The notes: generated from the sequence alone by a model not told the origin. 64,000 nucleotides of DNA from Promethearchaeota archaeon (GCA_014728035.1 WJMJ01000022.1:83608-147607), one strand, 5' to 3'. Shown: positions 22,741 through 43,223, counted from the stretch's first letter. Translations and numbers: made by a program.

Positions 22741-24624
22741 CTACTCCTTCTTCCTAATTTTATCTTTTTCAAGTCCTAGTCTTTCTAAGGTTTCATCGCG
22801 CGGCAGACCCGTTTCGATATCCCACCCTCTTCGTTCATAATATTCATCAAGCATCTGATTCAGTTCTACTACTTCTCCTTTATTCGGGCCAAGAGGCGCT
22901 GGCTCGTGAGTCAATCGTTTTGGTAATTGGTCGTCCTGTCTTGTTATTCCCAATCTCATATTGAATAGTCGATTAAGATTTACAATTCTCTCTCCAATTA
23001 TCTGGAGTTCCTCTCCAGTAAATTCGAGACCTGTATGAACTTTTAGTGCTAGAGCGACATCTTCATAGTAGAACTCTGGAGGAATCTGTGTTCCATATTT
23101 ACAGAGGCCAACACTCTCAATCATGACCATGAAATCCTCACATTCCTTTACCATGATGCCTTTGTATGTTGGATTCAAACGTTCAGCCATCTCAGGAAGG
23201 TATTCTTCACCAAACCTCTCTTTGATCTCATCATCAAATCCAGCTTCATCCAAAACCGGAAATGCATATAGATGGTCTGCACCCCGTGCAGCAGTAACCG
23301 CTGCCAATCCCATGGATTTCTGTGCCCTTGGTTCTTGTCCTGCAATCTCTTGCTTCTTAACTGCCATTACGAACTTTTCAGATCCTTTTCCGATTTTCTG
23401 AGCTGCTCGGAAACTCCCTTCAGCTAGGATGTCACCAAAGCCTTCTCTCAATGCTATCATCTTTGTTAGTTTGACTACGGTTTCATGATTACCCCAACCG
23501 AGATCAATGCCATCCGTGTCTTCAGCTGTGATAATTCCCTCGTCCCAAGCTTCCATTGCCCATGAGATTGTTGCACCTAATGAAATAGTGTCCATTCCGT
23601 ATTGATTTGCCAAGTGATGAGAATAGAGTACTGACTCAACATTGTCGTTTCCACAACGAGAACCAAGTGATGATTGAGACTCGAATTCTGGAGAGCCTCC
23701 CTCGTACTTGTATGGTCCTGTTGGAACTGCGGTATATCGTCCACATCTTTGTAAACAGCTCCAATCGGCCCTAGGTTTCACGAGATAGTCCTTTGTAATG
23801 GTTTCTCCACTAATAGCTTCATACCCGTCAAACACCCCTTGACGCATGTTGTAGCTCGGTAATCGTCCGATATGTTGCATCAATTCAACTAGATTCGTTG
23901 TACCATATCGTGCACGTTCAGGTGTGAATGGATTGGCTAGCATACGCTTGTAGAATTCATCCATGCGTTCGAGATACTCTTTTGGTTCTGCGACCTCTAT
24001 TTTTCCAGTTCCTCTTACCACGATAGCTTTGATTTTTTTAGAACCCATAACTGCTCCGAGACCCGACCTAGCTGATGCTCTGTCTCTATCATTCATCACT
24101 GCGGCAAATCTGACTAAATTCTCTCCTGCTTGTCCTATAGATAGTACTCTGCTCTTTCGACCATGCTTCTCTCTGAGATAGTCGTCTGTGGTAAAGACAT
24201 CGGTTCCCCATATTTCATCAGCGCTTTCTAATGTTACATTCTCATTGTGAATGTTAAGATAAACCGGTTCTTTTGATGCTCCTGTAAAGAATACTGCATC
24301 ATATCCAGCTAGCTTGATCTCTGTTCCCCAGAAACCTGCAGAATGACTCTCTCCCCAGACATTGGTTAAAGGGGAAAGGGCAGCTACTACTATTCTTGAG
24401 GCTTGTGGAAACATAGAGCCTGTAAGCAATCCTGTTGCAACACCAAGGACATTTTTCGGTGAGAGTGGATCGATGTCTGGAGAAATCTCGTCATACAATA
24501 CTCGCGATAGGTATCCTGCTCCAAGAAGGTATTTTTTGATAGTCTCTTCAGGAATCGGTTTCTTTTCCACTTCACTTTTTGTCAAGTTGACCCATAATAT
24601 CTCTCCACCTACACCTTTTATCAA
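22741..24624 (-). CDS. Tungsten-dependent aldehyde:ferredoxin oxidoreductase family protein (AOR-1)
   Basis: SPLT, GESHSAG, KLAGYD, IGQAGENLV, ARSGLGAVMGSKK, GMDTIS, RGADH, GLCKY, YYERRGWD..TGLP. Confidence 0.93.
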   Translation of the reverse strand: MIKGVGGEILWVNLTKSEVEKKPIPEETIKKYLLGAGYLSRVLYDEISPDIDPLSPKNVLGVATGLLTGSMFPQASRIVVAALSPLTNVWGESHSAGFWGTEIKLAGYDAVFFTGASKEPVYLNIHNENVTLESADEIWGTDVFTTDDYLREKHGRKSRVLSIGQAGENLVRFAAVMNDRDRASARSGLGAVMGSKKIKAIVVRGTGKIEVAEPKEYLERMDEFYKRMLANPFTPERARYGTTNLVELMQHIGRLPSYNMRQGVFDGYEAISGETITKDYLVKPRADWSCLQRCGRYTAVPTGPYKYEGGSPEFESQSSLGSRCGNDNVESVLYSHHLANQYGMDTISLGATISWAMEAWDEGIITAEDTDGIDLGWGNHETVVKLTKMIALREGFGDILAEGSFRAAQKIGKGSEKFVMAVKKQEIAGQEPRAQKSMGLAAVTAARGADHLYAFPVLDEAGFDDEIKERFGEEYLPEMAERLNPTYKGIMVKECEDFMVMIESVGLCKYGTQIPPEFYYEDVALALKVHTGLEFTGEELQIIGERIVNLNRLFNMRLGITRQDDQLPKRLTHEPAPLGPNKGEVVELNQMLDEYYERRGWDIETGLPRDETLERLGLEKDKIRKKE

Positions 24625-25118
24625 GATTCTACCTCCTTATTGTAGAGAACTTCACTATGCTCTTCATGAAGATTCAGAATTCGGTTGTCTGAATCTTTTT
24701 CTTTCAATTCTCTCTCGGTTGTTAACCATATTGCGTCTACTGGGCATCTTTCAACACAGGCTTCACACTGTATACATTTGAAGGCCTTCCCCGTATCTGG
24801 ATGGATTCTGATTGCAAAATATGGACATGCTTCAACGCATGCGCCTGTGCCATCACATTTTCTATTATTGACTATAACCACTCCTTTGGATGTACGCATC
24901 AATGCTTCATTCGGGCATGCCTCTATACAAGGAGCATCTTCACAGTTTCTACAAAAAACCGGAAAATCCAAACCTGGTTCTATTCGTTCTGCTCGTACCC
25001 TTGATCTCTCAGGACTAATGACTTTGTAAAATTTCATGCTGCACACATTGACACATATCATACATCCTGTGCATATATGGGGGTCTCCAATAACAAACTG
25101 TAGTTCACTCATATTCAT
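24621..25118 (-). CDS. 4Fe-4S polyferredoxin subunit (AorA/DmsB-like)
   Basis: CTGCMICVNVC, CRNCEDAPCIEACP, CDGTGACVEACP, KCIQCEACVERCP. Confidence 0.9.
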   Translation of the reverse strand: MNMSELQFVIGDPHICTGCMICVNVCSMKFYKVISPERSRVRAERIEPGLDFPVFCRNCEDAPCIEACPNEALMRTSKGVVIVNNRKCDGTGACVEACPYFAIRIHPDTGKAFKCIQCEACVERCPVDAIWLTTERELKEKDSDNRILNLHEEHSEVLYNKEVES

Positions 25119-26503
25119 GCTTCCTCCTCAATTGTTCTTCCTCCCATTGGCTGGTATTGACCATAACCTGGCTTAACCAATATCTTTCCGTCTTCATAGA
25201 CTGGTAATCCTCTCACTAGAGTCATCAAAGGTACACCCTTCATCTTCAAACCTTCATAGATTGTCCAATCGCATTTTGAGAGCATCATATCGGAAGTAAT
25301 CTTTTCTTCCTTTGTCTGGTCTACTATTACTATATCTGCATCGGATCCTACCTGTAACACTCCTTTTTTGGGATATAATCCAAATATCTTCGCAGGATTT
25401 TTTGATGCTACTTGTACCAACTTCTGGATAGAGATTCGGGCTTTATTGACACCCTCGGAGAGTAGAACACGTAGAATCATCTGAATTCCATCCACTCCTG
25501 ACCATGCTTGTCGAATATCATCCTTTCCTAGTTCTTTCTTTTCGATTGGACTGGGTGCATGATCACTTACTGTTATGTCTATCATTCCTCTAAGAAGCGC
25601 AGACCAAAGCTCTGCACGATCCTGTTTTGATCTTAGCGGCGGATTCATTTTGCTCCTTGGTCCGATTCTGTTCATCTCATCCCGGTGGAACACTAGATGA
25701 TGTGGACAGACCTCTGTGGTTACCATCACACCACTAAGTTTTCCTTTCTCTATTTCTCGTACCCCCTCTCGGGTGGATATGTGGGCTATGTGTAGATGTC
25801 CTCCAGTTTGTTCAGCGATACCTATAACCTGTCGAACTGCTAGTTGTTCTGCCAGATTGGGGCGTGAGAGCGAATGACTAACAGGTGCATCCCATTCATT
25901 CTTCATGTCTTTGCTGAATTCATCAAGCACTCCTTGGTCTTCACAATGAACCGTGATATGTCCTCCGTTGACTGAAACTTCACTAAGTAATCGTGTTAGT
26001 ACCCCGGTGTTTGTATAGAATGGTTCGCAAGTGAATGCTTTGAAAGCAGCTGCACCTCTTGCAATCATCTCTGGTATCACTGGATAATTGAACTCGTTCA
26101 TCATACCTACATTGAATGAGAAATCAGTTATTGAGAGTCTAGACCCATCATCTATCTTTTCTTGTAAGAGTGTAGGTGTGTCCATTTGACTGACTAAAGG
26201 CATATCGATGATGGTTGTTACTCCACCTGCTGCGGCTGCAAATGATCCTGGTGTAAACTCTTCGTGGTCAAGCATTCCTCTATCATGGATATGTGCATGT
26301 CCATCTATAAGACCCGGCAATACCAGCTTCTGTTTGGCGTCAATGACTCTATCACCTTGAGGCAGATGATTATCTGTTGCAATAATACAAATGGTTCCAT
26401 TTTTTATTCCGATACCTCCCTGGACAATTCCTGATTCGAGAACCAATTTTCCATTTGTAATGACTGTGTCAACTGGTTTATTCAAACTTGTTTCCTCCTC
26501 CAA
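25115..26503 (-). CDS. Cyclic amidohydrolase (allantoinase/dihydropyrimidinase/dihydroorotase family)
   Basis: PGLIDGHAH, AAAAGGVTT..DMP, FKAF, VHCE, HIAHIST, EVCPHHL, KMNPPLR, SDHAP. Confidence 0.9.
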   Translation of the reverse strand: MEEETSLNKPVDTVITNGKLVLESGIVQGGIGIKNGTICIIATDNHLPQGDRVIDAKQKLVLPGLIDGHAHIHDRGMLDHEEFTPGSFAAAAGGVTTIIDMPLVSQMDTPTLLQEKIDDGSRLSITDFSFNVGMMNEFNYPVIPEMIARGAAAFKAFTCEPFYTNTGVLTRLLSEVSVNGGHITVHCEDQGVLDEFSKDMKNEWDAPVSHSLSRPNLAEQLAVRQVIGIAEQTGGHLHIAHISTREGVREIEKGKLSGVMVTTEVCPHHLVFHRDEMNRIGPRSKMNPPLRSKQDRAELWSALLRGMIDITVSDHAPSPIEKKELGKDDIRQAWSGVDGIQMILRVLLSEGVNKARISIQKLVQVASKNPAKIFGLYPKKGVLQVGSDADIVIVDQTKEEKITSDMMLSKCDWTIYEGLKMKGVPLMTLVRGLPVYEDGKILVKPGYGQYQPMGGRTIEEEA

Positions 26504-26780
26504 TTGGTGGAAATAGTGCTACAGCATCTCCATCGGAAAGTTTTGTATCATAGCCATCTAGAAGTTCGATTCGTTTTCCGTTTATCATGCAGGAGAAAAA
26601 GCGTTTCAATCTCTCTCCTTCTTCATTAAAAACGGTCTCGACAAATTCTCTTCCAAATCTGTCTTTGAGTTTATCCAAAAGTTCTTTGATTGTTTCTGCT
26701 TGCAATTCAATCTTACTCACACCAGTAACACTACGAATTGTTGCAAAGAACTTGACAGTGACCTTGGCCAAATTGAACAC
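26478..26780 (-). CDS. Ubiquitin-like MoaD/ThiS/SAMP sulfur carrier with C-terminal extension (GGG-NKFE)
   Basis: VTVKFFAT, MING.....L....T.L.DGD.VALFPPIGGG; probable start TTG at 26771. Confidence 0.88.
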   Translation of the reverse strand: MFNLAKVTVKFFATIRSVTGVSKIELQAETIKELLDKLKDRFGREFVETVFNEEGERLKRFFSCMINGKRIELLDGYDTKLSDGDAVALFPPIGGGNKFE

Positions 26781-26875
26781 CTACTAGACAAATACGGAAG
26801 GCCGATTTAATAGTTAGGAAATGATTCCTCCATAGAAATATAGGGGACAAATCTCTAATTTCTACATCAAACATC

Positions 26876-27781
26876 ATGGAGTTAATACCAGTGGAGATTG
26901 TTGTTGTAGGTCATCTAAGCCGTGATCTTATTATCACACCTGAAGCTGAACGTGAAAGCTTGGGTGGAGCTCCTGCATATGCAATGATAGCACCATCTAT
27001 TGGTGCACTAGGAGCTGGGATCGTGACTCGTATCGGTACAGATTTCGAGCAATCATATCTGGATGATCTCCACGATGGGGGACTCGACCTTACTGGCCTA
27101 CGTACTAGCCAAGGTTCTTCTACACGATTTGTGAATATCTACGATGAGAAAGGAAATAGAACCCAAAGGGTCTCATCTCTAGCTCCACCAATTCATGGAT
27201 ATGATTATTTACCGCGTCATCTGGGTGCATCCATTTTCCATTTTGCACCTCTTACTTCCGAGGAGATTCATATATCCTGTATTGAAACAGCTAAGAGTTC
27301 TGGTGCTTTGGTATCGCTTGATGTTCAGGGATATCTCAGAGAGGTTCAAAATGAGGAGGTCTTGCTAACACCCTGGGACTATCCTGATGAAGTTCTTAGA
27401 TTTGTGGATATTGTAAAAGCTGAAGAAACCGAACTGGAATATCTTTCAGATGCAAAGACCGAGGTTTCAGCAATCTCCCGGATAGTTAGTTTAGGCCCTA
27501 GGATTGTAATCATTACTCGTAGCCAGAAAGGATCGACAATTTATACCAGAAATAACCATGTTGACATCCCCTTAGTTTTAGCTAACAAATTTGTTGACAG
27601 CACCGGATGTGGGGACGTATACTCGATCAGTTTTCTTCTGGAATATATGAGAACCGGGGATGTAGGAAAAGCCGGACTATTTGGAGCGACGTGTGCATCC
27701 TTTAATCTCGAAACACAGGGCCCGTACAATCTCCCTACTAGAGACCAGGTAGAGGAACGGATGAAACCCTATCATGCCTGA
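26876..27781 (+). CDS. PfkB/ribokinase-family kinase
   Basis: VGHLSRD, GGAPAY, IGTDF, LDVQG, IITRSQKGS, DSTGCGD. Confidence 0.9.
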   Translation: MELIPVEIVVVGHLSRDLIITPEAERESLGGAPAYAMIAPSIGALGAGIVTRIGTDFEQSYLDDLHDGGLDLTGLRTSQGSSTRFVNIYDEKGNRTQRVSSLAPPIHGYDYLPRHLGASIFHFAPLTSEEIHISCIETAKSSGALVSLDVQGYLREVQNEEVLLTPWDYPDEVLRFVDIVKAEETELEYLSDAKTEVSAISRIVSLGPRIVIITRSQKGSTIYTRNNHVDIPLVLANKFVDSTGCGDVYSISFLLEYMRTGDVGKAGLFGATCASFNLETQGPYNLPTRDQVEERMKPYHA

Positions 27782-27830
27782 ATGCGAAGTATTTTTCATA
27801 TGTATTTACTCACTGTAGACTCGTCATTAG

Positions 27831-29024
27831 GTGACTTGGATGCTAGAGGATTTCGACCAATTCATGGAAGATGCTGGTATTGATGCATTTGTATGTGAAG
27901 GAAACGCTTTCGAGGTTTCTGATATTGTTTGGCTAACTGGCTTTCGTTCAACGGATTCTGTAACTTACTTCAAAAACATTCACGATAAGGGAATTGTTGC
28001 AACCGGGTTCAAAACATATGATAGAGTACAGAAAGAGAGCTTCATCAAAGAGTTCCACGATCTTACTCCCATCTATAAAGATTTGATACGAGAAAAGAAA
28101 CGAGCCTATGAAAACCCAGATGTCATCTATGAAGATATTCTCAAGACTCATTTTACGGGCAGTATTATTGGTGTGCCCGACCATCTTCCTGCTAGAGTAC
28201 TTGTCGCAATCCAACAATTGGGTTATGATGTCAAAGTAGTTCCAAAGCTCTTGAAAAAAGCACGAGCAACTAAATCTCCATCGGAGATTGATATAATCAA
28301 AAAAGCTGGAAAATCTACAACATCTGCTATAGGCCGTATTGTTGAAATGATCAAAGATTCGACTATTGGCACCAATAACTCACTAGTAGTAGATGGGGAG
28401 CCACTCACTGTTGGAAGAGTAAAACTTGCTCTTGAACACTACTTATTGGACCAAGGTGCTGAGTCTGCTGAAGATGCAATTGTCGCAGTAGGAGCTAAAG
28501 CTTTTGATTGGCATTATCTTGGAAAACCAGAGGATGTACTCAAAGCACATGTTCCAATAATCATCGATGTGTTTCCACGATTAAAGTATGAGCGATATGT
28601 GGCAGATGTAACAAGGACTATTGTTAAAGGGTCTGTGAGTGAACCTGTTCAGAAAATGTTTGATGCAGTATATGATGCATTAGTATCCTCAATTGACAGC
28701 CTCTCGGATGGAGCGAAAATTGATGATGTTAACATGGCTTGTTTTGAAACTCTCAAACGTCATGGATATGATTCTAGTAGGTTGAACATTGATGCGGTTG
28801 ATGGTATGACTCATGGATTGGGCCATGGTATTGGACTGGATGTCCATGAAGAACCCAGTATGTATCGGTATGAAGACTATTTTACTAAGGGTAATGTAAT
28901 GGCTATAGAGCCTGGTGTGTATTTGAAGGGGGTTGGTGGAGTTCGCATCGAAAATGACTATGCTGTGTCTAGTAGTGGTGCTGAGAGATTAACTGTTGAT
29001 TTGGAAGATATCATTCATGTCTAA
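27831..29024 (+). CDS. Xaa-Pro aminopeptidase/prolidase (M24B)
   Basis: RATKSPSEI, IID, YVADVTRT, HGLGHGIGLDVHE, IEPGVY, GGVRIEND. Confidence 0.92.
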   Translation: MTWMLEDFDQFMEDAGIDAFVCEGNAFEVSDIVWLTGFRSTDSVTYFKNIHDKGIVATGFKTYDRVQKESFIKEFHDLTPIYKDLIREKKRAYENPDVIYEDILKTHFTGSIIGVPDHLPARVLVAIQQLGYDVKVVPKLLKKARATKSPSEIDIIKKAGKSTTSAIGRIVEMIKDSTIGTNNSLVVDGEPLTVGRVKLALEHYLLDQGAESAEDAIVAVGAKAFDWHYLGKPEDVLKAHVPIIIDVFPRLKYERYVADVTRTIVKGSVSEPVQKMFDAVYDALVSSIDSLSDGAKIDDVNMACFETLKRHGYDSSRLNIDAVDGMTHGLGHGIGLDVHEEPSMYRYEDYFTKGNVMAIEPGVYLKGVGGVRIENDYAVSSSGAERLTVDLEDIIHV

Positions 29025-29025
29025 A

Positions 29026-30111
29026 TCACTGGTAACTCAAAGCGAAATATGGACAGACAGAAATACACATCCCACAAGCTTCACAGGCCTCAGAATCTAT
29101 GTGTAATATTTTCTGCTCTCTATCTGCTGTTATTGCTCCGTATACACACGACTTTACACATAATCCACAAACGGTACATTTTTCGTGGTCAATCATTGGT
29201 GGCGGTTGTAACTTGGTGAGCTTCTTCAATGCGACGCCTCGAATTTCGTCAATTGAATCGTAATCATGAACATTAAGCCAGACTTCTGTTTCATTGGCGA
29301 TTCTACCATAGATTGTATGTCCCTCTAGTATGGCCGCAGTACATACCTGTACAGCTGAAGCACCTGCCATCACAAACTCGATGACATCTTCTCCAGAAGA
29401 TACACCTCCAACTCCTATAACTGGGATATCTACTGCTTTTGAAATGTCAGCTACACATCTTAGTGCGATAGGCTTGAGTGCTGATCCACTAAGCCATCCT
29501 TGACCCATGTCTCCTCCAAGCATTGGCTGACCTGTTTCAATATCAATTCTCAAACAAGGCCCATATGTATTGATTGCAACAATTCCATCAACATACTTCT
29601 CTAGCGATTTTGCTACTTCTGTAACATCTACTTTAGGACTCAACTTTGCGAATATTGGTGTGTTGACCGATTCCCGCAACGCCTTGGCTATCTCTACGTG
29701 TCCTCCTACATAGTGAGTACTAAACTCAATAGCTTCAACTCCGGCTTTCTCCATCTTTGGAGCTAACTTAGAGACTTCTTCTGGTGTGTATCCAACACTT
29801 GCAATCAGCGGTAGGCCAGAGCTCTTCGCAATTGCATACTCTTTCTCAATCCATTGTTCAGGTGGTAATTCGCTCCAGAGTTCCGTGTTTAACATCCCTC
29901 TTCTTGATGGAACTCTTCCTCTTCCTATCGCTGCCATATTTGGCCTTGGCACTTCAGCACCCTTGACACTAATCGTCTTTGCAACCAGTCCTCCAACTCC
30001 TCCTGTTGCAGCAGTAAGAAGTGTCATACCATCTCGTGATGTTGGTCCGGCAGCAGTCAGAACCGGATTGCGAAATTGCAAACCTGCTATTTCAACGCGG
30101 ATATTTGCCAT
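29026..30111 (-). CDS. Dihydroorotate/dihydropyrimidine dehydrogenase (PreA-like) FMN protein with C-terminal 2x[4Fe-4S]
   Basis: NPVLTAAGP, VAKT, NTELWSE, AKLSP, AINT, GWLSG..LKPIAL, IGVGGV, GASAVQVCT, two CxxCxxCxxxC. Confidence 0.87.
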   Translation of the reverse strand: MANIRVEIAGLQFRNPVLTAAGPTSRDGMTLLTAATGGVGGLVAKTISVKGAEVPRPNMAAIGRGRVPSRRGMLNTELWSELPPEQWIEKEYAIAKSSGLPLIASVGYTPEEVSKLAPKMEKAGVEAIEFSTHYVGGHVEIAKALRESVNTPIFAKLSPKVDVTEVAKSLEKYVDGIVAINTYGPCLRIDIETGQPMLGGDMGQGWLSGSALKPIALRCVADISKAVDIPVIGVGGVSSGEDVIEFVMAGASAVQVCTAAILEGHTIYGRIANETEVWLNVHDYDSIDEIRGVALKKLTKLQPPPMIDHEKCTVCGLCVKSCVYGAITADREQKILHIDSEACEACGMCISVCPYFALSYQ

Positions 30112-30575: not shown

Positions 30576-32513
30576 CTAGTTTGCTAACATACCTCTCTTT
30601 TCCAAATCCTTTACAACAAAGTCAAGATCAAGGCTTTCAAGGACCGATTTCTTTGGAAATCCAGTTTCTTTATCGCAGCCTCTGAACTCATAATATTCGT
30701 CTAGCATATAATCCAGATCAGGGAGTCCTCCTTTTGATGGCCCGGTTGGCATTGGTTCTTTGAGAAGTCTTCTTGGGAGAGTTTCTTCTTTTCTGGTAAT
30801 TCCCAGTCTGTGATTATATGCACGTCTGAGATGGCTAATTCTATCCGCAGCACGACGCACATATTTCACATCACCCCATTCTTCCATACCTGTAAGGGAT
30901 GGTAGAACATTAGCAAAAGTATCAAAGTAAAATATTGGTGGCCACATTGTGCCGTACTTGCAGATAACTGCAGAATCTGTAATGGCGTAGAGGTTTTCAA
31001 TATCGTATACAACCAGTCCTTTGTGAACCGGTGACATGATCTCTTGAATCTCATCAGCTTTTTCTTTTCCGAATCGACGAATAGAAATCTCTGGAAATCC
31101 TAACTCCTCCAGACTTGATAGACTTCTAAGGTGGTCTGCGCCCCGTACATTCACTGCATAGGTGAGACCAATAGATTGGTGAGCTCGTGGATCCTGTCCA
31201 GATGCTTCCAATCCTTTAGAATGAATTGCATATTTCCATGCATCTCCTCCAATAATCTCCGCAGCCTTTCGTGTGCCTTTAGATAGCAATTCTCCAATCC
31301 CTTTCTCTCTTCTTGCTATCTTTTCAATCAGAGCATTCATTGAATCAACATTGCCCCATGATAGATCAAGACCGTCAGTGTCCTTTTCAGTAAGAATACC
31401 TCTCTCCCAAAGTTCCATGGCAAAACTGATGGTCTTTCCACAGGAGATGGTATCCATTCCAAGCAGGTCACATCTATGACCTTGGTAAAATACCGCTTCA
31501 ACATCACCATTCAAGCAGTTTGATCCGAATGCCATTAGAGTTTCATATTCTGGTCCACCAGCTGGCCCCCCAGCAAATTTTCCTTCATTTACTCGGTATA
31601 CATATTTGCAACCGATTCCACATCCATGGCATGCTTCCTGTGCAACACGATATTTTTCAGCTATAAGCTCGGGGCCGATTGATTCAGCATCTTCAAAGAA
31701 TCCAGTCCAATGATTTTTAGTTGGAAGGCGTCCTATCTCATTAATCATTGCAACAAGGTCTGTAGTTCCATAATCTCTTAGACTCTTCAGGAAGTCTTTC
31801 CATAGTGGGTCATTTAGCCGTTCCATCTCTTGTTCATTAGCAGTGAGATATGCATCCATATCATGCGCTTCCAGACCAAGAGAACCTCTTGCAGCAAGTG
31901 CTTTCACATTTTTGGAGCCTAGTACTGTTCCGAGACCTGTTCTCCCAGCAGCTCGATAGTAATCAACAATTATTGCTCCGTAGAGGACTCCATTCTCTCC
32001 TGCAGGACCAATAGCTGCAGTTTCAATTGCAGGGTCTCTATGCTCTTCTCTGATCATGTCAGTTGTTTCAGCAGTTTCTCTTCCCCACAATTTAGAAGCA
32101 TCACGTAATTCTGCTTTCCCATCATTTAACCATAGGTAGACTGGTTTCGGTGACCTGCCATTGAAAATGACAAAATCAAACCCTGCATATTTTATCTCTG
32201 GCCCCAGAAAACCACCAACATGGCTCTCAGCCCATATACCCGTAAGAGGGCTCATTCCAGAGAACATCATTCTACCAGAAGGTGAGAACATCACACCTGT
32301 TAGAGGCCCAGTTCCTACTATCAAAATATTGTCCGGTGAAAGTGGGTCGGTGTCAGGTCCAGTTCTATCCCAGAGTATTTTTGAGGCAATACCTGTTCCT
32401 CCAAGATAGAGTCTTGCCCATTCTTTTTCCATCTCTTTCTTGTGAATTTTTCCTTTTGTCAAATCAACATCCAAATAGTAACCTGCATAGCCCTTGTATG
32501 GAAAGCTTCCCAT
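30576..32513 (-). CDS. Tungsten-dependent aldehyde:ferredoxin oxidoreductase family protein (AOR-2)
   Basis: SPLTG, ESHVGG, IGPAGEN, GRTGLGTVLGSKN, CHGCGIGC, GPEYET, CDLLGMDTIS, RGADH. Confidence 0.94.
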   Translation of the reverse strand: MGSFPYKGYAGYYLDVDLTKGKIHKKEMEKEWARLYLGGTGIASKILWDRTGPDTDPLSPDNILIVGTGPLTGVMFSPSGRMMFSGMSPLTGIWAESHVGGFLGPEIKYAGFDFVIFNGRSPKPVYLWLNDGKAELRDASKLWGRETAETTDMIREEHRDPAIETAAIGPAGENGVLYGAIIVDYYRAAGRTGLGTVLGSKNVKALAARGSLGLEAHDMDAYLTANEQEMERLNDPLWKDFLKSLRDYGTTDLVAMINEIGRLPTKNHWTGFFEDAESIGPELIAEKYRVAQEACHGCGIGCKYVYRVNEGKFAGGPAGGPEYETLMAFGSNCLNGDVEAVFYQGHRCDLLGMDTISCGKTISFAMELWERGILTEKDTDGLDLSWGNVDSMNALIEKIARREKGIGELLSKGTRKAAEIIGGDAWKYAIHSKGLEASGQDPRAHQSIGLTYAVNVRGADHLRSLSSLEELGFPEISIRRFGKEKADEIQEIMSPVHKGLVVYDIENLYAITDSAVICKYGTMWPPIFYFDTFANVLPSLTGMEEWGDVKYVRRAADRISHLRRAYNHRLGITRKEETLPRRLLKEPMPTGPSKGGLPDLDYMLDEYYEFRGCDKETGFPKKSVLESLDLDFVVKDLEKRGMLAN

Positions 32514-33013
32514 TACTCTGATACCTCCTGTGTCCGTATGCTTGTTGACAGCTGTTCCATTCCCTTGGCCCTTTCGCTTCTTCCTTTCTCTTCTGAAACC
32601 AATGAGATCACTCCGTACTCACATGCAGTTATACAGGCAGGATCCCCGTCGCAGAGATCGCATTTGATTGCCTTTCTGGCAACTGGATCTATCACTATTC
32701 CTCCATAGATACAAGCTGAAACACAATTTCCACATCCGATGCATTCCTCATGATTTACTGTCAAAACACCCGATGAATTCAAAATAATCGCATTCGTAGG
32801 ACAAGCTTCAGCACAGAGTGGCTCATCACACTGCAGACAGACCATCGGAATAATCAGTCCTTTGTGTTCTTTTTTGAGAATCTGTATTCTTGACCTTGCT
32901 GGGTTGAATGATGTGGCATTCCGGGTAGAGCAAGCTAATTCACAATTTCTGCAGCCCGTACAGCGTTGGGCATCAATTACTAGGAGGTTTTTCAAAGGGG
33001 GTAACTCCGTCAA
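32513..33013 (-). CDS. 4Fe-4S polyferredoxin subunit (AorA/DmsB-like)
   Basis: CTGCRNCELAC, CLQCDEPLCAEACP, CIGCGNCVSAC, KCDLCDGDPACITAC. Confidence 0.9.
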   Translation of the reverse strand: MTELPPLKNLLVIDAQRCTGCRNCELACSTRNATSFNPARSRIQILKKEHKGLIIPMVCLQCDEPLCAEACPTNAIILNSSGVLTVNHEECIGCGNCVSACIYGGIVIDPVARKAIKCDLCDGDPACITACEYGVISLVSEEKGRSERAKGMEQLSTSIRTQEVSE

Positions 33014-33381: not shown

Positions 33382-35175
33382 ATGAATACTACAACTCCCC
33401 TCGACTCGACAAAAAAATCGTTTGACAGACAAAAATTTCATGAAGTAGCGGAAAGTATGCAAATCGCAGTCCTTGATTTCAATATGGACTTGGAATTAAT
33501 TTATGCAAATCCAATAGCAATGGACATTTTTGATTTTGATGAGAAAAAGTTGGATGAATGTATTTCCTTCAAGGAATTGGTGGTGCCTGAACAAGTTCAG
33601 AATATCGAAGCCACATTCAATCGACTTATCTCCGGGGAGGAACCACAATCAATGACAATTCGAGCTATCACAAGGAACGATGTTCATATCCCCTTCCAAG
33701 TTACTCCTGAACTTATATTGGAGGATGGAGAGCCAATTGGTATCATTATTTATGCAATTGACCTCTCTACCCGGGTAGCAACTGACCACGCGATGATGGA
33801 AAGAGCTGAATATTTTCGTCTCATTGTTGAATATTCTAGTTTTGCTGGTATGGTAATTATCGATGACCAGTATCACTTTGAATGGTTTAATGACAAATTT
33901 TGTGAAATCCTAGGATACTCTCGTCAAGAGTTGATTCAGAAAGATTTCCGTGAAGTGCTGCATCCTGATAGTCTTGAGCTAACCGCTGATAGATACCGTA
34001 GACGGCAACAAGGAGAATCTGTACCCCCAGTCTATGAGATCAAAGTTATCCGGAAAGATGGAAGCATCAGGGAAGTTATTCTTAGTAGCAAAATCTACAA
34101 GAGTGGTAAAGGCCTCAAATCTGTTGCTCAAGTATTAGATGTAACTGAACAGAAACAACAACGTCGAGCACTCGAAAAGAGCGAACGTCGCTATAGAACT
34201 CTTGTTGAAACTATTATTGCTGGCTTGGGTATTGATGATGCAAATGGTATAATTATCTACGCAAATGAGACCCTAAGCAGAATGACTGGATATACAACTC
34301 AGGAATTAGTTGGTATGAAAGGCTCTACGCTTGTTCATGAGCTGACACCTGATCGAATACAATCTCGTCGCGAGGGCAAATTCGAACAATATGAAGCACA
34401 TCTCGTAACCAAATCCGGAACTCTTGTACCAGTCATTGTTTCAGCATCGCCTTTGATGGACTCTGAAAATAACTTTGAAGGGTCTTTTGCAATTTTTACT
34501 GATATATCTCAACTCAAATCTGTAGAAGATGAGGTCCGTTTTCTGTTAGATTTGATTTTACACGATATTGGAAATCAACTCCAGCTAATCATTGCAGGTA
34601 GTGGACTAATAGAGGGCGATGCACCAGAGGAAATTCTCCTTCGTGCAAAAGAATACATTCTAGATGGTGCACATCGTAGCCTTGATTTGATTACAAAGGT
34701 TCGGGGTGCGGAACAAGCGAAAACTGAATCCCTTACTCCAATTGATATCACAGAGGTCATTGAATCGGAGTCAATGCTTCTCTGGAGACAACATGGAGTG
34801 ATGCCTGACATAACTGGAGTACCCAATAGTCTGATGGTCTTGGCTGATGGAGCAGTGAATCATCTCATTTGGAATATTCTGGAGAATGCAGTAAAACACA
34901 ATACCAGTTCAGACCCAGAAGTATGGATTGAAGGATTCATTGAAGATGATTGCTTTCTACTTGAAATATCTGATAATGGACCAGGTCTCGATGAGGAAAA
35001 ACGAAACCGACTCTTTGATGTTCATAGACGATATGGTGGTGTTGGTCTCCACATTGTGCGGCGATTAGCAGAGAAATATTGTTCTCTTCCAGAAGTGTCT
35101 GACCGTATTGATGGCCACCCTGGAGAGGGCTTGACAATAAGACTCAGATTTCATTTGGCTAAAGACGAACCATAA
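33382..35175 (+). CDS. Cytoplasmic sensor histidine kinase with three PAS domains
   Basis: Three PAS repeats (YANP, WFNDKFCEILGYS, YANETLSRMTGYT), H-box LHDIGNQL, N-box NILENAVKH, DNGPG, GVGL. Confidence 0.93.
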   Translation: MNTTTPLDSTKKSFDRQKFHEVAESMQIAVLDFNMDLELIYANPIAMDIFDFDEKKLDECISFKELVVPEQVQNIEATFNRLISGEEPQSMTIRAITRNDVHIPFQVTPELILEDGEPIGIIIYAIDLSTRVATDHAMMERAEYFRLIVEYSSFAGMVIIDDQYHFEWFNDKFCEILGYSRQELIQKDFREVLHPDSLELTADRYRRRQQGESVPPVYEIKVIRKDGSIREVILSSKIYKSGKGLKSVAQVLDVTEQKQQRRALEKSERRYRTLVETIIAGLGIDDANGIIIYANETLSRMTGYTTQELVGMKGSTLVHELTPDRIQSRREGKFEQYEAHLVTKSGTLVPVIVSASPLMDSENNFEGSFAIFTDISQLKSVEDEVRFLLDLILHDIGNQLQLIIAGSGLIEGDAPEEILLRAKEYILDGAHRSLDLITKVRGAEQAKTESLTPIDITEVIESESMLLWRQHGVMPDITGVPNSLMVLADGAVNHLIWNILENAVKHNTSSDPEVWIEGFIEDDCFLLEISDNGPGLDEEKRNRLFDVHRRYGGVGLHIVRRLAEKYCSLPEVSDRIDGHPGEGLTIRLRFHLAKDEP

Positions 35176-35226: not shown

Positions 35227-36618
35227 TTGGACTCGTTTGAATCAATCCTCATCAAAAATGGCTATGTGCTGACTATAGACCCTAAGCGAAGAATTCTTCC
35301 GAAAGGAAATATCCGAATTGAAGGAAATAAGATTACTGAAGTATCAAAATCTCCTTCTAATGATGCAGAACTTGTGATTGATGCATCTGGAAAAATAGTC
35401 ATGCCTGGACTTATTGATACCCATGTGCATTTAGCTCAGGCATTAATTCGAGGATGTGCTGATGATGTATCTCTGGTTGATTGGTTGAAGAATTATGTGT
35501 GGGTTCTTCAAGGTAATTTCACCCATGCTGACGGAAAAGCCTCCGCAGAATTGTGCATGGCTGAAATGATTCGTACTGGTACTACTGGTTTCATCGAATG
35601 TATGATTCACTCAAGGTATGGATTTGATGGAATTGCCAAATCTGTTGAAAAAATCGGGATGCGTGCAGCTCTTTCCAAGATTATTATGGATTCAACTGGA
35701 TATGCTGATAGTCCTGACATCATGTACCCTGGAATGGTAGAATCAGCTGGAGACTGCCTACAGGAAACTGAGGCTATGCTTAAGAAATGGCAATGGGATG
35801 CAAATGGGCGTATTCAGGTATGGTATGGACTTAGGTCTCTTGGAGCAGTTTCTGATAGTCTGTTCAAGCAGGTTGTTCAACTTGCCCGTAAACATAAGAC
35901 CCGTATGACCATGCATCTTGGCGAAGTACCTGATGATGTCAGATATGTACAGGAAAATCATGGTACCAATCTGGTAGGATTTGCTCGCAAGCTTGGACTA
36001 CTGGGAGATGATATGGTTTTTGCTCATGGTATCCATTTTGAAGATCAAGAAATACAAGAACTAGCAGCTACCCAATCGAATATCTCTCATTGCCCTGCTA
36101 GTAATATGAAACTTGCATCAGGATTTGCAAAGGTACCAGAGATGCTTGAGCATGGGGTTCCTGTTTCCCTTGGATGTGATGGAGGACCTAGCAATAATAC
36201 ATATGACATGATTCGTGAGATGCGACTCGCAGCTCTGATACATAAACCTCGAGTTAATGATCCGACTGTTGTTAGTGCTGAACAAGTTATTGAGATGGCT
36301 ACTCTCGGTGGTGCTAAGGCTCTTGGTTTAGGTGACGAATTGGGATCTTTAGAACAAGGAAAACTTGCTGACATTATTTTGGTTGATATGCGCCATCTTA
36401 ATCTAACACCAAATACCAATCCAGTTTCTAATCTTGTATACGCTGGGTCTGGGAATGATGTTGACACAGTAATTGTAGATGGTAAGATCCTCTTACGAGA
36501 TAAGGAACATCTCACTCTCGACCGAGATGCGGTTATGGTTAAAGCAGAAAAACACGCAGTTGATTTGATAGAAAGAGCAGAAGTCGAGATAGAACCAAAA
36601 TGGCCTATCTTCGACTGA
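35227..36618 (+). CDS. Amidohydrolase, MTA/SAH/purine-deaminase (MtaD/SsnA/AtzA-like) family
   Basis: PGLIDTHVH, GTT, MHLGE, AHG, HCPASNMKLASG, LGCDG..SNN, GSLEQGKLADI. Confidence 0.9.
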   Translation: MDSFESILIKNGYVLTIDPKRRILPKGNIRIEGNKITEVSKSPSNDAELVIDASGKIVMPGLIDTHVHLAQALIRGCADDVSLVDWLKNYVWVLQGNFTHADGKASAELCMAEMIRTGTTGFIECMIHSRYGFDGIAKSVEKIGMRAALSKIIMDSTGYADSPDIMYPGMVESAGDCLQETEAMLKKWQWDANGRIQVWYGLRSLGAVSDSLFKQVVQLARKHKTRMTMHLGEVPDDVRYVQENHGTNLVGFARKLGLLGDDMVFAHGIHFEDQEIQELAATQSNISHCPASNMKLASGFAKVPEMLEHGVPVSLGCDGGPSNNTYDMIREMRLAALIHKPRVNDPTVVSAEQVIEMATLGGAKALGLGDELGSLEQGKLADIILVDMRHLNLTPNTNPVSNLVYAGSGNDVDTVIVDGKILLRDKEHLTLDRDAVMVKAEKHAVDLIERAEVEIEPKWPIFD

Positions 36619-36625
36619 TATTGAA

Positions 36626-37828: not shown

Positions 37829-37840
37829 TTTTCAACCTCC

Positions 37841-38614: not shown

Positions 38615-38635
38615 TCACCTACAATCTTCCTGTAG

Positions 38636-39412: not shown

Positions 39413-39449
39413 CCTATTCTCTCCTTAGTGGCAATATACATTTGGCATT

Positions 39450-40835: not shown

Positions 40836-40870
40836 TTTTCCCCGATATACTCCCTGATATGGTTTGCTCC

Positions 40871-42133: not shown

Positions 42134-42242
42134 CTCCCTTCACCGTCTTACTAGTCTCGTACTGTGGTCTTCTCTCTGAAATCTTCATATTTTGATATAT
42201 CTTTTCCGAGAAATCTATAATGTAGTATTGCTAAATTGATGC

Positions 42243-43223
42243 TTGGTCAAGATTAGTATGATTCACTCTTATTCCGATTCAAAGATAGTTGAAAACATCC
42301 TGCAACTAACGGGATTGATTCAGGAAGCATTGAATTCGCTTACAAGGGCTACAATGAATATCAGTCTTGTACATTCACTATTATATAATGCAGGATCATA
42401 CGAATCAGCAATCGCTCAATCAGCTTGTGGTTATCTTTCATGTGGATATAGCGGATATACTTTTCCAACACAGTTTATACCTAATAGACAAGAAGTGTTA
42501 ATGGAACTCAAATCAGCCGCAAAACTATGTGATATCTTGTTTTATTCATATTCCGATAAGTCAAAATTAGGGAATGGACGGTCTCTTTGTCTGGAGGCTG
42601 CAGAAACTATTCAATCCCCACTCTTATCTCTTGGTGATGAGATTTTTGCATTTCAATCAGCACTCGGCTACATCTTACCAATATATCGTAGACTTGGGAA
42701 ACTTAAAGAGAAAAAGGTAGTCGTTTCCTGGGGTTATGATACTCGTTTTTCTCTTCCTGCAACTGCTCATGCCTTGGTGTACCTAAGTGCTGTTCTAGGT
42801 GCTGATGTAAGCATCATCGCACCAAAAGATTTCCCCCTCCTTCGTCGAGTACTTAAGAAATCAAAGAAGATTGCTGGCGAATCAGATGGGTCTGTTGAGA
42901 CCGTCGAACGTACCGAGAAAGAATATCATGATGCAGACGCAGTCTTTGCATTCAACTGGTGTAGCGTGAATGAATTCATTCGTCCTGAGAGAAATAAGGA
43001 TCTTGCGTTTCAGTATCGTGACTGGCAGATATCTAAAGATTGTTTAGACAATGCATTGTTTATGACTGAACAGCCTCAGAGATTGGATATGATTGCAGAG
43101 AGAGCTGTTATGGATAGCAGTGCAAATCTTACCTCCCATTGGTTAGAATCCAGAATTCTTGTATTGTTAGCATCAATGGATGCAATCTTTCGTCATAATT
43201 CAACAATTCGAGCTCTGGTCTGA
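42243..43223 (+). CDS. Ornithine/YgeW-type carbamoyltransferase homologue with degenerate catalytic motifs
   Basis: Overall OTC layout (KKVVVSWGY, LGADVSIIAPKDF, DADAVFAFNW, WQIS, VMDS) but no STRT, HPxQ or HCLP. Confidence 0.65.
   Translation: MVKISMIHSYSDSKIVENILQLTGLIQEALNSLTRATMNISLVHSLLYNAGSYESAIAQSACGYLSCGYSGYTFPTQFIPNRQEVLMELKSAAKLCDILFYSYSDKSKLGNGRSLCLEAAETIQSPLLSLGDEIFAFQSALGYILPIYRRLGKLKEKKVVVSWGYDTRFSLPATAHALVYLSAVLGADVSIIAPKDFPLLRRVLKKSKKIAGESDGSVETVERTEKEYHDADAVFAFNWCSVNEFIRPERNKDLAFQYRDWQISKDCLDNALFMTEQPQRLDMIAERAVMDSSANLTSHWLESRILVLLASMDAIFRHNSTIRALV

What the first reader, a model, noticed from the sequence alone, without database searches (positions are those of the whole stretch)
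22741..43223. Candidate tungsten-based anaerobic purine/pyrimidine degradation system
Seen, within about 20 kb: SAMP/MoaD-cyclic amidohydrolase-ferredoxin-AOR1 as one overlapping operon, a PfkB kinase, a PreA-like flavo-FeS protein, a second ferredoxin-AOR pair, a PAS kinase followed by a purine/MTA-type deaminase, purB and a YgeW/OTC-like protein. Established: reductive pyrimidine catabolism uses PreTA + dihydropyrimidinase. The bacterial anaerobic urate cluster uses Xdh, YgfK, SsnA, HyuA and YgeW. AOR-family W enzymes are known as aldehyde oxidisers or ring reductases (BamB), not nucleobase enzymes. Inference: the AOR paralogues may replace Mo xanthine dehydrogenase or act on N-heterocycles or their ring-opened products, with the ferredoxins possibly replacing PreT as electron partner of the PreA-like protein. 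This would be an undescribed archaeal nucleobase-fermenting route, possibly venting electrons through the adjacent Mvh hydrogenase.
Basis: inference. Interest (0 to 1): 0.75.

Follow-up and report, generated by a model that had tools for sequence, protein, structure and literature searches.

The report
Archaeal purine-breakdown cluster with tungsten-type enzymes
A Thorarchaeota (Asgard archaeon) genome carries a conserved gene cluster that looks like the anaerobic purine-breakdown pathway found in gut bacteria in 2025, except that two tungsten-type "aldehyde" oxidoreductases with iron-sulfur wire subunits sit where every other version has a molybdenum xanthine dehydrogenase, which suggests an untested new job for that enzyme family.

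Summary
The genes are there, with corrections. The PreA-like gene is 29026-30111 (-).

The window belongs to a Thorarchaeota MAG. The order Deam, PAS kinase, [Fd2-AOR2-PreA-like], M24, PfkB, [MoaD-hydantoinase-like-Fd1-AOR1] is kept in more than 30 Thorarchaeota genomes. A rearranged core (PreA-like, SsnA- or DadD-type amidohydrolases, polyferredoxin-AOR pairs, MoaD) recurs in four other Asgard families.

The amidohydrolase and the PreA-like protein are not the genome's PyrC and PyrD; those lie elsewhere.

The PreA-like protein belongs to the clade of ferredoxin-type reductases that elsewhere sit beside SsnA and xanthine dehydrogenase (Xdh) in reductive urate (2,8-dioxopurine) clusters. It is not in the pyrimidine (Pyd) clade.

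Among 80 metagenomic loci of this reductase, 15 carry AOR, 32 carry Xdh and none carries both. This family (0 of 85 genomes) and family f14 (0 of 19) have no Xdh at all.

So the purine reading, and "AOR in the Xdh slot", are supported by context only. Both AORs look like canonical aldehyde oxidisers, and their substrate is unknown. purB, the degenerate OTC-like gene and Mvh are not part of the conserved core.

This scan has reported the same theme on other DNA. No searched paper describes it.

The parts
22741..24624 (-). AOR1: AOR-family tungstopterin-type oxidoreductase, last gene of the MoaD-amidohydrolase-Fd1-AOR1 operon
   Evidence: AFOR_N and AFOR_C at 248 and 432 bits. Best PDB matches are 9mqx_D (444 bits) and 1aor (391 bits). 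Glu313 and His448 equivalents are kept; the first [4Fe-4S] Cys is Asp. The orthologous clade (support 100) is also cluster-linked in families f14 and f6.
24621..25118 (-). Fd1: AorA/WOR5-B-type polyferredoxin, partner of AOR1
   Evidence: Fer4 families. Best PDB matches are 9mqx_E, 6x6u_B and 8c0z_C, which are AOR small subunits. The gene overlaps its neighbours by 4 nt.
25115..26503 (-). Amh: hydantoinase/allantoinase-like cyclic amidohydrolase, candidate HyuA analogue
   Evidence: Best PDB match is L-hydantoinase 1gkr (273 bits), ahead of allantoinase (230) and dihydroorotase (188). It falls below most NCBIfam cut-offs. The genome's PyrC lies elsewhere. The gene is lost together with PreA-like and AOR2 in G312 and G324.
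26478..26780 (-). MoaD/ThiS-like small protein, probable pterin-cofactor maturation factor (compare aorD)
   Evidence: TIGR01687 at 80 bits, ThiS at 56 bits. The C-terminus reads ...PPIGGGNKFE. MoaD-like genes accompany aorABC in Aromatoleum (PMC6365974).
26876..27781 (+). PfkB-family kinase (possibly nucleoside or ribose-phosphate kinase); present in the cluster only in Thorarchaeota family f1
   Evidence: PfkB at 74 bits. Best PDB match is MJ0406 (2c49) at 82 bits. Syntenic in f1 only.
27831..29024 (+).
   Evidence: Peptidase_M24 at 132 bits. Best PDB matches are prolidases at about 90 bits. Syntenic in f1 only.
29026..30111 (-). PreA-like FMN plus 2x[4Fe-4S] reductase of the UacX type, candidate oxopurine ring reductase
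   Evidence: DHO_dh plus Fer4. Eight invariant Cys and a conserved EFSTHY segment in place of the DPD Cys loop. It sits in a clade (support 98) with reductases linked to Xdh and SsnA, apart from the Pyd type and from PyrD. SsnA is adjacent in 57 of 80 metagenomic loci.
30576..32513 (-). AOR2: second AOR-family oxidoreductase, upstream of the PreA-like gene
   Evidence: AFOR_N and AFOR_C. Best PDB matches are 9mqx_D (410 bits), 8c0z_A (384) and 1aor (383). All four cluster Cys, Glu and His are kept. The orthologous clade (support 100) is translationally coupled to PreA-like in f14.
32513..33013 (-). Fd2: polyferredoxin partner of AOR2
   Evidence: 16 invariant Cys, giving four [4Fe-4S] sites. 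Fer4 families.
33382..35175 (+). PAS-domain histidine kinase upstream of the deaminase (possible regulator; f1 only)
   Evidence: PAS domains and HATPase_c. Syntenic in f1.
35227..36618 (+). Deam: DadD/MtaD-type (TRZ/ATZ) aminohydrolase, candidate entry deaminase for adenine- or guanine-type substrates
   Evidence: NF005557 at 428 bits (cut-off 522); SsnA model only 217 bits. It is the only close DadD/MtaD homologue in the genome. Orthologues at 50-53% identity lie in the f14 and f32 clusters.
42243..43223 (+). Degenerate OTC/YgeW-like ORF (peripheral; probably not catalytic)
   Evidence: Only the C-terminal OTCace domain matches, at 45 bits. NAGSYE, FAFQ and TEQP stand where the other scan note places the catalytic motifs (positions not aligned here). 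An intact carbamoyltransferase lies at contig C22.

Best explanation
The locus is the Thorarchaeotal, Xdh-free form of the reductive purine-ring degradation pathway (the 2,8-dioxopurine or reductive urate route). It is hard-wired to two AorAB-type tungsten-family oxidoreductase-polyferredoxin modules.

Proposed flow:
1. A DadD/MtaD-type deaminase prepares an oxopurine from an aminopurine or its nucleoside. The PfkB kinase may deal with the sugar part.
2. The PreA-like FMN/[4Fe-4S] protein (UacX type) reduces the purine ring with low-potential electrons.
3. Amidohydrolases open the rings. These are an SsnA orthologue encoded elsewhere (contig C96) and the hydantoinase-like gene inside the AOR1 operon.
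4. Ureido groups are removed by enzymes encoded elsewhere: a carbamoyltransferase and a CN-hydrolase on contig C22, and a carbamate kinase on contig C115.
5. The two AOR-polyferredoxin modules take the place that Xdh holds in all other versions. They are the pathway's pterin-dependent redox partner. They carry out the oxidation that Xdh otherwise does, either on the purine itself or on an aldehyde-level carbon released after reduction and ring opening. They pass the electrons through their [4Fe-4S] chains to the PreA-like reductase.

Shown: gene identities, co-conservation, clade membership of the reductase, AOR/Xdh exclusivity, and absence of Xdh.
Inferred: every substrate, the electron path, and any physical complex.
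For: 1. Cluster conservation. The same order is found in 22 plus 10 Thorarchaeota genomes. Rearranged cores are found in four other families:
- f14: Fd-AOR2-PreA-like-MoaD, with the AOR2 stop overlapping the PreA-like start, plus SsnA, Deam, two OTC-type genes and Fd1-AOR1.
- f6: SsnA-Deam-PreA-like-Fd-MoaD-AOR-Fd-AOR plus a divergent Fd-AOR.
- f32 and f3.

2. The AOR1-type and AOR2-type genes form orthologous clades (support 100) that stay in the cluster across f1, f14 and f6.

3. The PreA-like protein sits in a clade (support 98) with reductases flanked by SsnA and Xdh. These come from Hadarchaea, Zhuqueibacterota, a JGI contig and Asgard family f8. Pyd-type copies form a separate clade.

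4. In 80 metagenomic loci, SsnA is adjacent in 57. AOR alone is present in 15, Xdh alone in 32, and both in none.

5. The Xdh Mo domain is absent from this genome (98% complete). It is found in 0 of 85 f1 and 0 of 19 f14 genomes, but in 29 of 31 f8 genomes.

6. Two Thorarchaeota genomes lack PreA-like, the AOR2 orthologue and the Amh orthologue together.

7. The SsnA orthologue (50-53% identical to the cluster-linked ones), a carbamoyltransferase, a CN-hydrolase and a carbamate kinase exist elsewhere in the genome.

8. The bacterial pathway and the enzyme roles are published. The order Fd-AOR-X-MoaD mirrors aorA-aorB-aorC-aorD.
Against: - Both AORs resemble bona fide aldehyde oxidoreductases. 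Their best PDB matches are AORs, and Glu313 and His448 are kept. No sequence feature points to heterocycle chemistry.
- The third cluster-type AOR of f6 and f32 lies, in this genome, beside an aminotransferase and a glutamate dehydrogenase. That is an amino-acid-catabolism setting.
- In this genome SsnA is unlinked and scores just under its model's cut-off (396 against 444 bits).
- No YgeX-type lyase was found.
- Undinarchaeales have the amidohydrolase-reductase-amidohydrolase trio with neither AOR nor Xdh, so a pterin enzyme is not obligatory.
- The AOR linkage probably arose only once or twice within Asgard. The many genomes are therefore not independent.
- Synteny within Thorarchaeota extends to clearly unrelated genes.
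- The deaminase is the only DadD/MtaD homologue in the genome and could be a housekeeping enzyme.
Confidence: 0.6

Rival explanations
1. The nucleobase enzymes (PreA-like, amidohydrolases) do degrade purines using soluble ferredoxin. The AOR-polyferredoxin modules are ordinary broad-range aldehyde oxidisers, for example for aldehydes derived from amino acids or sugars. They supply reduced ferredoxin in general, and they stay next to the cluster by inheritance rather than by a dedicated role.
For: The AOR sequences and catalytic residues are canonical. The genome has eight AOR paralogues. The AOR3-type orthologue sits beside an aminotransferase and a glutamate dehydrogenase. Thorarchaeotal synteny also covers unrelated genes. 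Undinarchaeales need neither AOR nor Xdh.
Against: Two distinct AOR clades remain inside the cluster through rearrangements in at least three families, with translational coupling of AOR2 to PreA-like in f14. AOR and Xdh are mutually exclusive beside the reductase (15, 32 and 0 loci). PreA-like, AOR2 and Amh are lost together.
Confidence: 0.2
2. The cluster is a ferredoxin-dependent reductive pyrimidine (Pyd) pathway. PreA-like would be PydA, the cyclic amidohydrolase would be dihydropyrimidinase, the deaminase would be cytosine deaminase, and an AOR would oxidise malonate semialdehyde.
For: The amidohydrolase resembles hydantoinases and dihydropyrimidinases. Canonical Pyd clusters in relatives contain an aldehyde dehydrogenase step that an AOR could replace.
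Against: Pyd-type reductases of Thorarchaeota and f11 form a separate clade (support 99). They have their own dihydropyrimidinase, CN-hydrolase and aminotransferase. The window's reductase clusters with purine-type, SsnA- and Xdh-linked ones. No aminotransferase or beta-ureidopropionase gene is in the cluster.
Confidence: 0.07
3. The module acts on another N-heterocycle or on a hydantoin- or lactam-type compound, for example hydantoins derived from amino acids, pterins or nicotinate-like rings. Ring reduction and hydrolysis would release an aldehyde for the AORs, as enamidase does in nicotinate fermentation.
For: All family matches fall below equivalog cut-offs. The reductase lacks the DPD Cys loop and has its own conserved EFSTHY motif. 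The hydantoinase-like gene is nearest to an L-hydantoinase.
Against: The nearest relatives of the reductase are consistently found with Xdh, SsnA, OTC, carbamate kinase, M20 and PALP genes. That is the purine set.
Confidence: 0.1

Closest known systems
Bacterial reductive uric acid / 2,8-dioxopurine pathway cluster (E. coli xdhD-ygfM, ygfK, ssnA, hyuA, ygeW, yqeA, ygeY, ygeX; C. difficile and C. sporogenes variants with UacX); bioRxiv 10.1101/2025.05.19.654654 and 10.1101/2025.04.24.650524
   Same: It has a ferredoxin-type FMN/FeS reductase of the UacX kind, TRZ/ATZ/SsnA-type and hydantoinase-type amidohydrolases, and a carbamoyltransferase and carbamate kinase in the genome. The reductase is clade-mate to those in full Xdh-SsnA-PALP-M20-OTC-CK clusters.
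   Different: It has no Xdh-family enzyme anywhere in the genome. Two AOR-polyferredoxin modules plus MoaD take its place. SsnA is unlinked in this genome. No YgeX or M20 gene was found in the cluster. It also carries PfkB, M24 and PAS-kinase genes. The host is archaeal.
AorABC(DE) tungsten aldehyde oxidoreductase of Aromatoleum aromaticum and related multi-subunit AORs (PDB 8c0z, 9mqx; PMC6365974)
   Same: A W-pterin subunit is paired with a four-cluster polyferredoxin and a MoaD-like gene. The operon order Fd-AOR-third subunit-MoaD is seen in the f14 relatives. Catalytic Glu and His are kept.
   Different: The FAD/NAD subunit AorC is absent. A PreA-like FMN/2x[4Fe-4S] protein stands in its operon position. 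The modules are embedded among amidohydrolases. The AOR1 clade has Asp for the first cluster Cys.
PreTA / dihydropyrimidine dehydrogenase and clostridial ferredoxin-dependent PydAc
   Same: An FMN TIM barrel with a C-terminal 2x[4Fe-4S] domain. It has no FAD/NAD partner, like PydAc and UacX.
   Different: It lacks the mobile catalytic Cys loop (EFSTHY instead). It branches apart from the Pyd-type copies of related archaea.
Class II benzoyl-CoA reductase BamB (AOR-family enzyme that reduces an aromatic ring)
   Same: It is a precedent for an AOR-family tungsten enzyme acting on an aromatic ring rather than on an aldehyde.
   Different: AOR1 and AOR2 are much closer to AOR proper (391-444 bits) than to BamB (224-245 bits).

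Membership tests
Reductive uric acid / 2,8-dioxopurine pathway cluster | YgfK/UacX-type FMN/FeS reductase that dearomatises the oxopurine | tested here: inconclusive
   The PreA-like protein is in the clade (support 98) of reductases flanked by SsnA and Xdh. No sequence of the characterised UacX was on hand for direct comparison. Activity is untested.
Reductive uric acid / 2,8-dioxopurine pathway cluster | SsnA amidohydrolase next to the reductase | tested here: not met
   The window's deaminase scores 217 bits on the SsnA model (cut-off 444) and 428 bits on the DadD model. An SsnA orthologue (396 bits, just under the cut-off) exists but is unlinked at C96:17342-18670. In f14, f6, f32 and f3 SsnA is adjacent to the reductase.
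Reductive uric acid / 2,8-dioxopurine pathway cluster | Xdh-family Mo (or Se-Mo) enzyme XdhD/DOPDH that makes 2,8-dioxopurine | tested here: not met
   PF02738 finds nothing in the 98%-complete genome. It is found in 0 of 85 f1 genomes.
Reductive uric acid / 2,8-dioxopurine pathway cluster | HyuA-type hydantoinase | tested here: inconclusive
   The hydantoinase-like gene scores 316 bits on the D-hydantoinase model (cut-off 393). Its best PDB match is an L-hydantoinase at 273 bits. It is only 28% identical to the hydantoinase of the f8 Xdh-type cluster.
Reductive uric acid / 2,8-dioxopurine pathway cluster | YgeW/YqeA (carbamoyltransferase plus carbamate kinase), YgeY (M20) and YgeX (diaminopropionate ammonia-lyase) | tested here: inconclusive
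   Carbamate kinase is present (364 bits, cut-off 358). An intact carbamoyltransferase lies at C22. The window's OTC-like gene is degenerate. The best YgeX match is only 56 bits against a cut-off of 532. M20 was not searched; an M24 gene is present instead.
AOR sensu stricto (tungsten aldehyde:ferredoxin oxidoreductase, AorAB type) | AFOR_N plus AFOR_C domains with catalytic Glu313 and His448 (P. furiosus numbering) | tested here: met
AOR sensu stricto (tungsten aldehyde:ferredoxin oxidoreductase, AorAB type) | Four Cys ligands of the [4Fe-4S] cluster | tested here: inconclusive
   AOR2 has all four. AOR1, and its f1 and f14 orthologues, have Asp in place of the first (Cys288).
AOR sensu stricto (tungsten aldehyde:ferredoxin oxidoreductase, AorAB type) | Polyferredoxin small subunit with four [4Fe-4S] clusters, and a MoaD-like maturation gene | tested here: met
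   16 invariant Cys in Fd2 orthologues. PDB matches are AOR small subunits. MoaD is in the operon.
AOR sensu stricto (tungsten aldehyde:ferredoxin oxidoreductase, AorAB type) | Tungsten content and aldehyde substrates | not testable with these tools
   Needs purified enzyme.
PreA / dihydropyrimidine dehydrogenase (pyrimidine reduction) | Catalytic Cys on the mobile active-site loop, and a PreT/FAD partner | tested here: not met
   The loop is shortened and reads EFSTHY, with no Cys. No PreT or PyrK gene is adjacent. PyrK sits beside the true PyrD on contig C9.
Biosynthetic PyrC / PyrD | Being the genome's only copy, above the family cut-off | tested here: not met
   PyrD (329 bits) with PyrK (281 bits) lies on C9, and PyrC (335 bits) on C25. 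The window's PreA-like protein scores 181 bits, under the 270 cut-off.

The most novel reading that the evidence does not exclude
AOR1 and AOR2 (and the third clade in relatives) are tungsten-dependent purine hydroxylases or dehydroxylases. Under this reading they do on purine carbons what Mo xanthine dehydrogenases (XdhD/DOPDH) do. They exchange electrons through their polyferredoxins directly with the PreA-like ring reductase, so that purine dearomatisation runs as an internal, ferredoxin-level redox loop without any Mo enzyme. This would be the first nucleobase-acting member of the AOR family.
Probability: 0.3. Interest if true: 0.9.

Novelty: new variant of a known kind. Interest (0 to 1): 0.66.

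Why it matters
- AOR-family tungsten enzymes are known as aldehyde oxidisers, with BamB as a ring reductase. A conserved place for them in a purine-degrading cluster, mutually exclusive with Xdh, gives a concrete and testable candidate for a new substrate class. It may also be an example of tungsten replacing molybdenum in a whole pathway, in sulfidic sediments.
- It extends a pathway described only in 2025 in gut bacteria to Asgard archaea. That would add purine fermentation to the predicted diet of Thorarchaeota.
- If the AORs prove to be ordinary aldehyde oxidisers, the result still defines an Xdh-free variant whose entry substrate must differ from urate.

Tried and rejected
- Complex prediction of Fd2 with the PreA-like protein, each as an alignment, gave no verdict (score 0.00). 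It counts neither for nor against binding.
No expression data were obtained and read laying was not used.
- Three literature searches linking AOR, tungsten or Thorarchaeota with SsnA, purines or nucleosides found nothing relevant. The Asgard paper PMC11291895 treats AORs generically.
- The context of the unlinked SsnA orthologue on C96 was uninformative.
- The idea that purB, the ABC transporter, the OTC-like gene and the radical-SAM gene belong to the system was rejected. They are syntenic only within Thorarchaeota and absent from the other families' clusters.
- The AOR 4.5 kb from the L112 cluster (36% identity) was judged incidental.
- The Mvh link was rejected as a pathway feature. Mvh is adjacent in 9 of 22 Thorarchaeota loci (some loci end before that point) and in no other family.
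- No reference AOR sequences (FOR, WOR4, WOR5, GAPOR, BamB) could be brought into the tree. Placement relative to named subfamilies therefore rests on PDB bit scores only.

Full report
**What is in the window**

The window is contig C151:83608-147607 of a 4.33-Mb MAG. The MAG is 98% complete with 8.5% contamination. Close relatives are all labelled Thorarchaeota.

On the minus strand, four genes overlap by 26, 4 and 4 nt:
- MoaD/ThiS-like, 26478-26780.
- Cyclic amidohydrolase, 25115-26503.
- Four-cluster polyferredoxin Fd1, 24621-25118.
- AOR1, 22741-24624.

Then follow, on the plus strand, PfkB (26876-27781) and an M24 peptidase (27831-29024).

Convergent with these is the PreA-like gene (29026-30111, minus). 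It follows Fd2 (32513-33013) and AOR2 (30576-32513).

A PAS histidine kinase (33382-35175) and a TRZ/ATZ-type deaminase (35227-36618) follow on the plus strand.

purB (39450-40835) passes its equivalog cut-off (455 bits against 326) and looks like the ordinary adenylosuccinate lyase. The OTC-like ORF (42243-43223) matches only the C-terminal OTCace domain. It has NAGSYE, FAFQ and TEQP where another scan note places the carbamoyl-phosphate and ornithine motifs; I did not align these positions.

**Not the biosynthetic copies**

The genome has a PyrD (329 bits) next to a PyrK (281 bits) on contig C9, and a PyrC (335 bits) on contig C25. All three are above their cut-offs.

The window's amidohydrolase is closest to an L-hydantoinase (1gkr, 273 bits), then to allantoinases and D-hydantoinases, and only then to dihydroorotases.

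The PreA-like protein has an FMN barrel plus two [4Fe-4S] motifs (eight invariant Cys). It lacks the mobile Cys loop of DPD. A shortened EFSTHY segment stands there instead and is conserved across relatives.

**Conservation**

In 22 species-level Thorarchaeota genomes the order is kept at 55-85% identity. That order is Deam, PAS-HK, Fd2, AOR2, PreA-like, M24, PfkB, MoaD, Amh, Fd1, AOR1.

Ten further genomes show that the synteny runs on through the ABC transporter, purB, the OTC-like gene and a radical-SAM gene. Within-family synteny is therefore partly plain inheritance and says little about function.

The informative evidence comes from other Asgard families:
- Family f14 has Fd-AOR2-PreA-like-MoaD, with the AOR stop overlapping the reductase start. 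It also has an SsnA-type amidohydrolase, the deaminase orthologue (51%), two intact OTC-type carbamoyltransferases and Fd1-AOR1.
- Family f6 has SsnA-Deam-PreA-like-Fd-MoaD-AOR-Fd-AOR, plus a divergent Fd-AOR pair.
- Family f32 has PreA-like beside SsnA and Deam, with a MoaD-Fd-AOR run about 5 kb away.
- Family f3 has SsnA-PreA-like-AOR.

In an AOR tree, the cluster genes fall into three clades, each with support 100. The AOR1 and AOR2 types both stay inside the cluster in f1, f14 and f6.

Two Thorarchaeota genomes (87% and 91% complete) lack the reductase, the AOR2 orthologue and the hydantoinase-like orthologue together.

**What the core is**

Two 2025 papers describe a bacterial reductive urate pathway:
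- XdhD/DOPDH makes 2,8-dioxopurine.
- YgfK, or the ferredoxin-type PydA homologue UacX, dearomatises it.
- SsnA and HyuA open the rings.
- YgeW/YqeA, YgeY and YgeX finish the pathway.

Relatives of the window's reductase sit in exactly such clusters:
- Asgard family f8: OTC, hydantoinase, SsnA, reductase, XdhA, XdhB, XdhC.
- A Zhuqueibacterota contig: Xdh, reductase, M20, OTC, PALP, second Xdh.
- Hadarchaea: two amidohydrolases, reductase, XdhC, Xdh.
- A JGI contig with two Xdh, three amidohydrolases, two OTC, carbamate kinase, PALP and a nucleoside phosphorylase.

In a tree rooted on PyrD, the window's protein lies in a clade (support 98) with these Xdh-linked reductases. The copies found in canonical pyrimidine clusters form a separate clade. 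Those pyrimidine clusters carry a dihydropyrimidinase, a CN-hydrolase, a class-III aminotransferase and an aldehyde dehydrogenase. This favours a purine-type substrate over a pyrimidine-type one.

The genome also holds, unlinked:
- An SsnA orthologue (396 bits; 50-53% identical to the cluster-linked ones).
- An intact carbamoyltransferase next to a CN-hydrolase.
- A carbamate kinase.

No YgeX was found.

**AOR in the Xdh slot**

The Xdh Mo-binding domain is absent from this genome. Across 400 Asgard genomes it is found as follows:

| Family | Genomes with Xdh Mo domain |
|---|---|
| f1 | 0 of 85 |
| f14 | 0 of 19 |
| f8 | 29 of 31 |
| f11 | 20 of 22 |

I also scanned 80 metagenomic loci carrying relatives of the reductase (48-74% identity):

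| Neighbourhood of the reductase | All 80 loci | 27 loci with at least 7 kb on both sides |
|---|---|---|
| SsnA adjacent | 57 | 24 |
| AOR only | 15 | 3 |
| Xdh only | 32 | 18 |
| Both AOR and Xdh | 0 | 0 |
| Neither | 33 (mostly short contigs) | 6 |

One locus (L092) has Xdh plus a partial polyferredoxin at its contig end. It may be an exception.

This is a clean pattern of positional displacement. The caveat is that the AOR-linked reductases form essentially one clade plus one outlier. The linkage may therefore have arisen only once or twice.

**What the AORs are**

Both AORs match solved AORs best:

| PDB entry | AOR1 (bits) | AOR2 (bits) |
|---|---|---|
| 9mqx_D | 444 | 410 |
| 1aor | 391 | 383 |
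| 8c0z (Aromatoleum AorB) | 356 | 384 |
| BamB | 224 | 245 |

Glu313 and His448 are kept in all cluster AORs. The small subunits match AOR polyferredoxins and have 16 invariant Cys. The order Fd-AOR-X-MoaD mirrors aorA-aorB-aorC-aorD of Aromatoleum, with the PreA-like protein where the FAD subunit AorC stands.

By sequence, then, these are AorAB-type modules, and nothing marks them as heterocycle enzymes.

In this genome the third cluster-type AOR lies beside an aminotransferase and a glutamate dehydrogenase. That is an amino-acid setting.

**Most likely mechanism**

I read the locus as an Xdh-free, ferredoxin-level version of the reductive purine pathway.
- A DadD/MtaD-type deaminase acts at the entry. 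It is the only such gene in the genome.
- The UacX-type reductase dearomatises the ring.
- SsnA and the hydantoinase-like enzyme open the rings.
- The two AOR-polyferredoxin modules act as the pterin-dependent redox partner.

Confidence in this overall reading is 0.6.

Which reaction the AORs catalyse is open. My rough odds are:
- 0.3: they act on purine carbons as Xdh does.
- 0.3: they oxidise an aldehyde-level carbon produced by the pathway and return the electrons to the reductase.
- 0.2: they are general ferredoxin-reducing aldehyde oxidisers with no dedicated role.
- The rest: other readings.

PfkB is nearest to MJ0406, which I recall as a nucleoside kinase (82 bits). The M24 enzyme is prolidase-like. 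Both are additions found only in family f1, and their role is unknown. Mvh is adjacent in 9 of 22 Thorarchaeota loci (some loci end before that point) and in no other family.

**Novelty**

The core pathway is known. The ferredoxin-type reductase without PreT is already proposed for clostridia. The archaeal host and the AOR-for-Xdh exchange are not in the two pathway papers (no mention of tungsten, archaea or aldehyde) nor in any paper found.

Earlier notes of this scan report the same theme on other DNA: other archaea, Bipolaricaulota, Chloroflexota, and a Firmicutes operon led by a purine riboswitch. I did not test those. My conclusion was reached from this window's own comparisons before I read them.

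Noticed in passing
window 23764-23766 (AOR1 residue 287): AOR1 and its orthologues in Thorarchaeota (f1) and f14 have Asp where AORs have the first Cys ligand of the [4Fe-4S] cluster (D-W-S-C-L-Q-R-C). The f6 orthologue and all AOR2-type and AOR3-type genes keep Cys. This may be an Asp-ligated cluster with altered potential.
   Followed up: partly
window 26478-26495: The MoaD/ThiS-like protein ends ...PPIGGGNKFE, so residues follow the Gly-Gly needed for activation. This was already noted by another reader; only the C-terminus was confirmed here.
   Followed up: partly
window 42243-43223: An intact 326-aa OTC/YgeW-like ORF matches only the C-terminal OTCace domain and appears to lack the usual catalytic motifs. 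It evolves fast (30-38% identity among Thorarchaeota, against 60-90% for its neighbours). An intact paralogue lies at C22:1333-2415.
   Followed up: partly
L047 (G374:C26) and L042 (G058:C93): Some Thorarchaeota and an f11 genome carry a separate canonical reductive pyrimidine cluster. It holds a second PreA-like paralogue, a class-III aminotransferase, a CN-hydrolase and a dihydropyrimidinase, plus an aldehyde dehydrogenase and SsnA in L042. This genome lacks the second reductase, but has the CN-hydrolase at the very start of contig C22.
   Followed up: partly
L057 (G000:C37:111297-113714): A third polyferredoxin-AOR pair is orthologous to the AOR inside the f6 and f32 clusters. In this genome it lies next to a class-IV aminotransferase and a glutamate dehydrogenase.
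   Followed up: partly
protein P0283: A 43%-identical homologue of the PreA-like reductase is recorded in the eukaryote Tritrichomonas musculus, annotated as dihydrothymine dehydrogenase. It was seen on long contigs, so it is probably a real parabasalid gene.
   Followed up: no
window 22413-22733 (+): A small 106-aa ORF lies between AOR1 and MvhD. It has no family match but is conserved in three related loci (81%, 59% and 55% identity).
   Followed up: no
window 10429-14916 (-): Three co-directional genes encode FAD_binding_4, a CCG/Fer4 protein and FAD_binding_4. The set resembles a GlcDEF or D-lactate dehydrogenase with an HdrD-like subunit. It lies upstream of the DUF362, TauE and Mvh region.
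   Followed up: no
L058 (Undinarchaeales, JASMDC010000004): A DPANN-type archaeon has a minimal trio of amidohydrolase, PreA-like reductase (54% identity) and amidohydrolase. Neither AOR nor Xdh lies within 10 kb.
   Followed up: no
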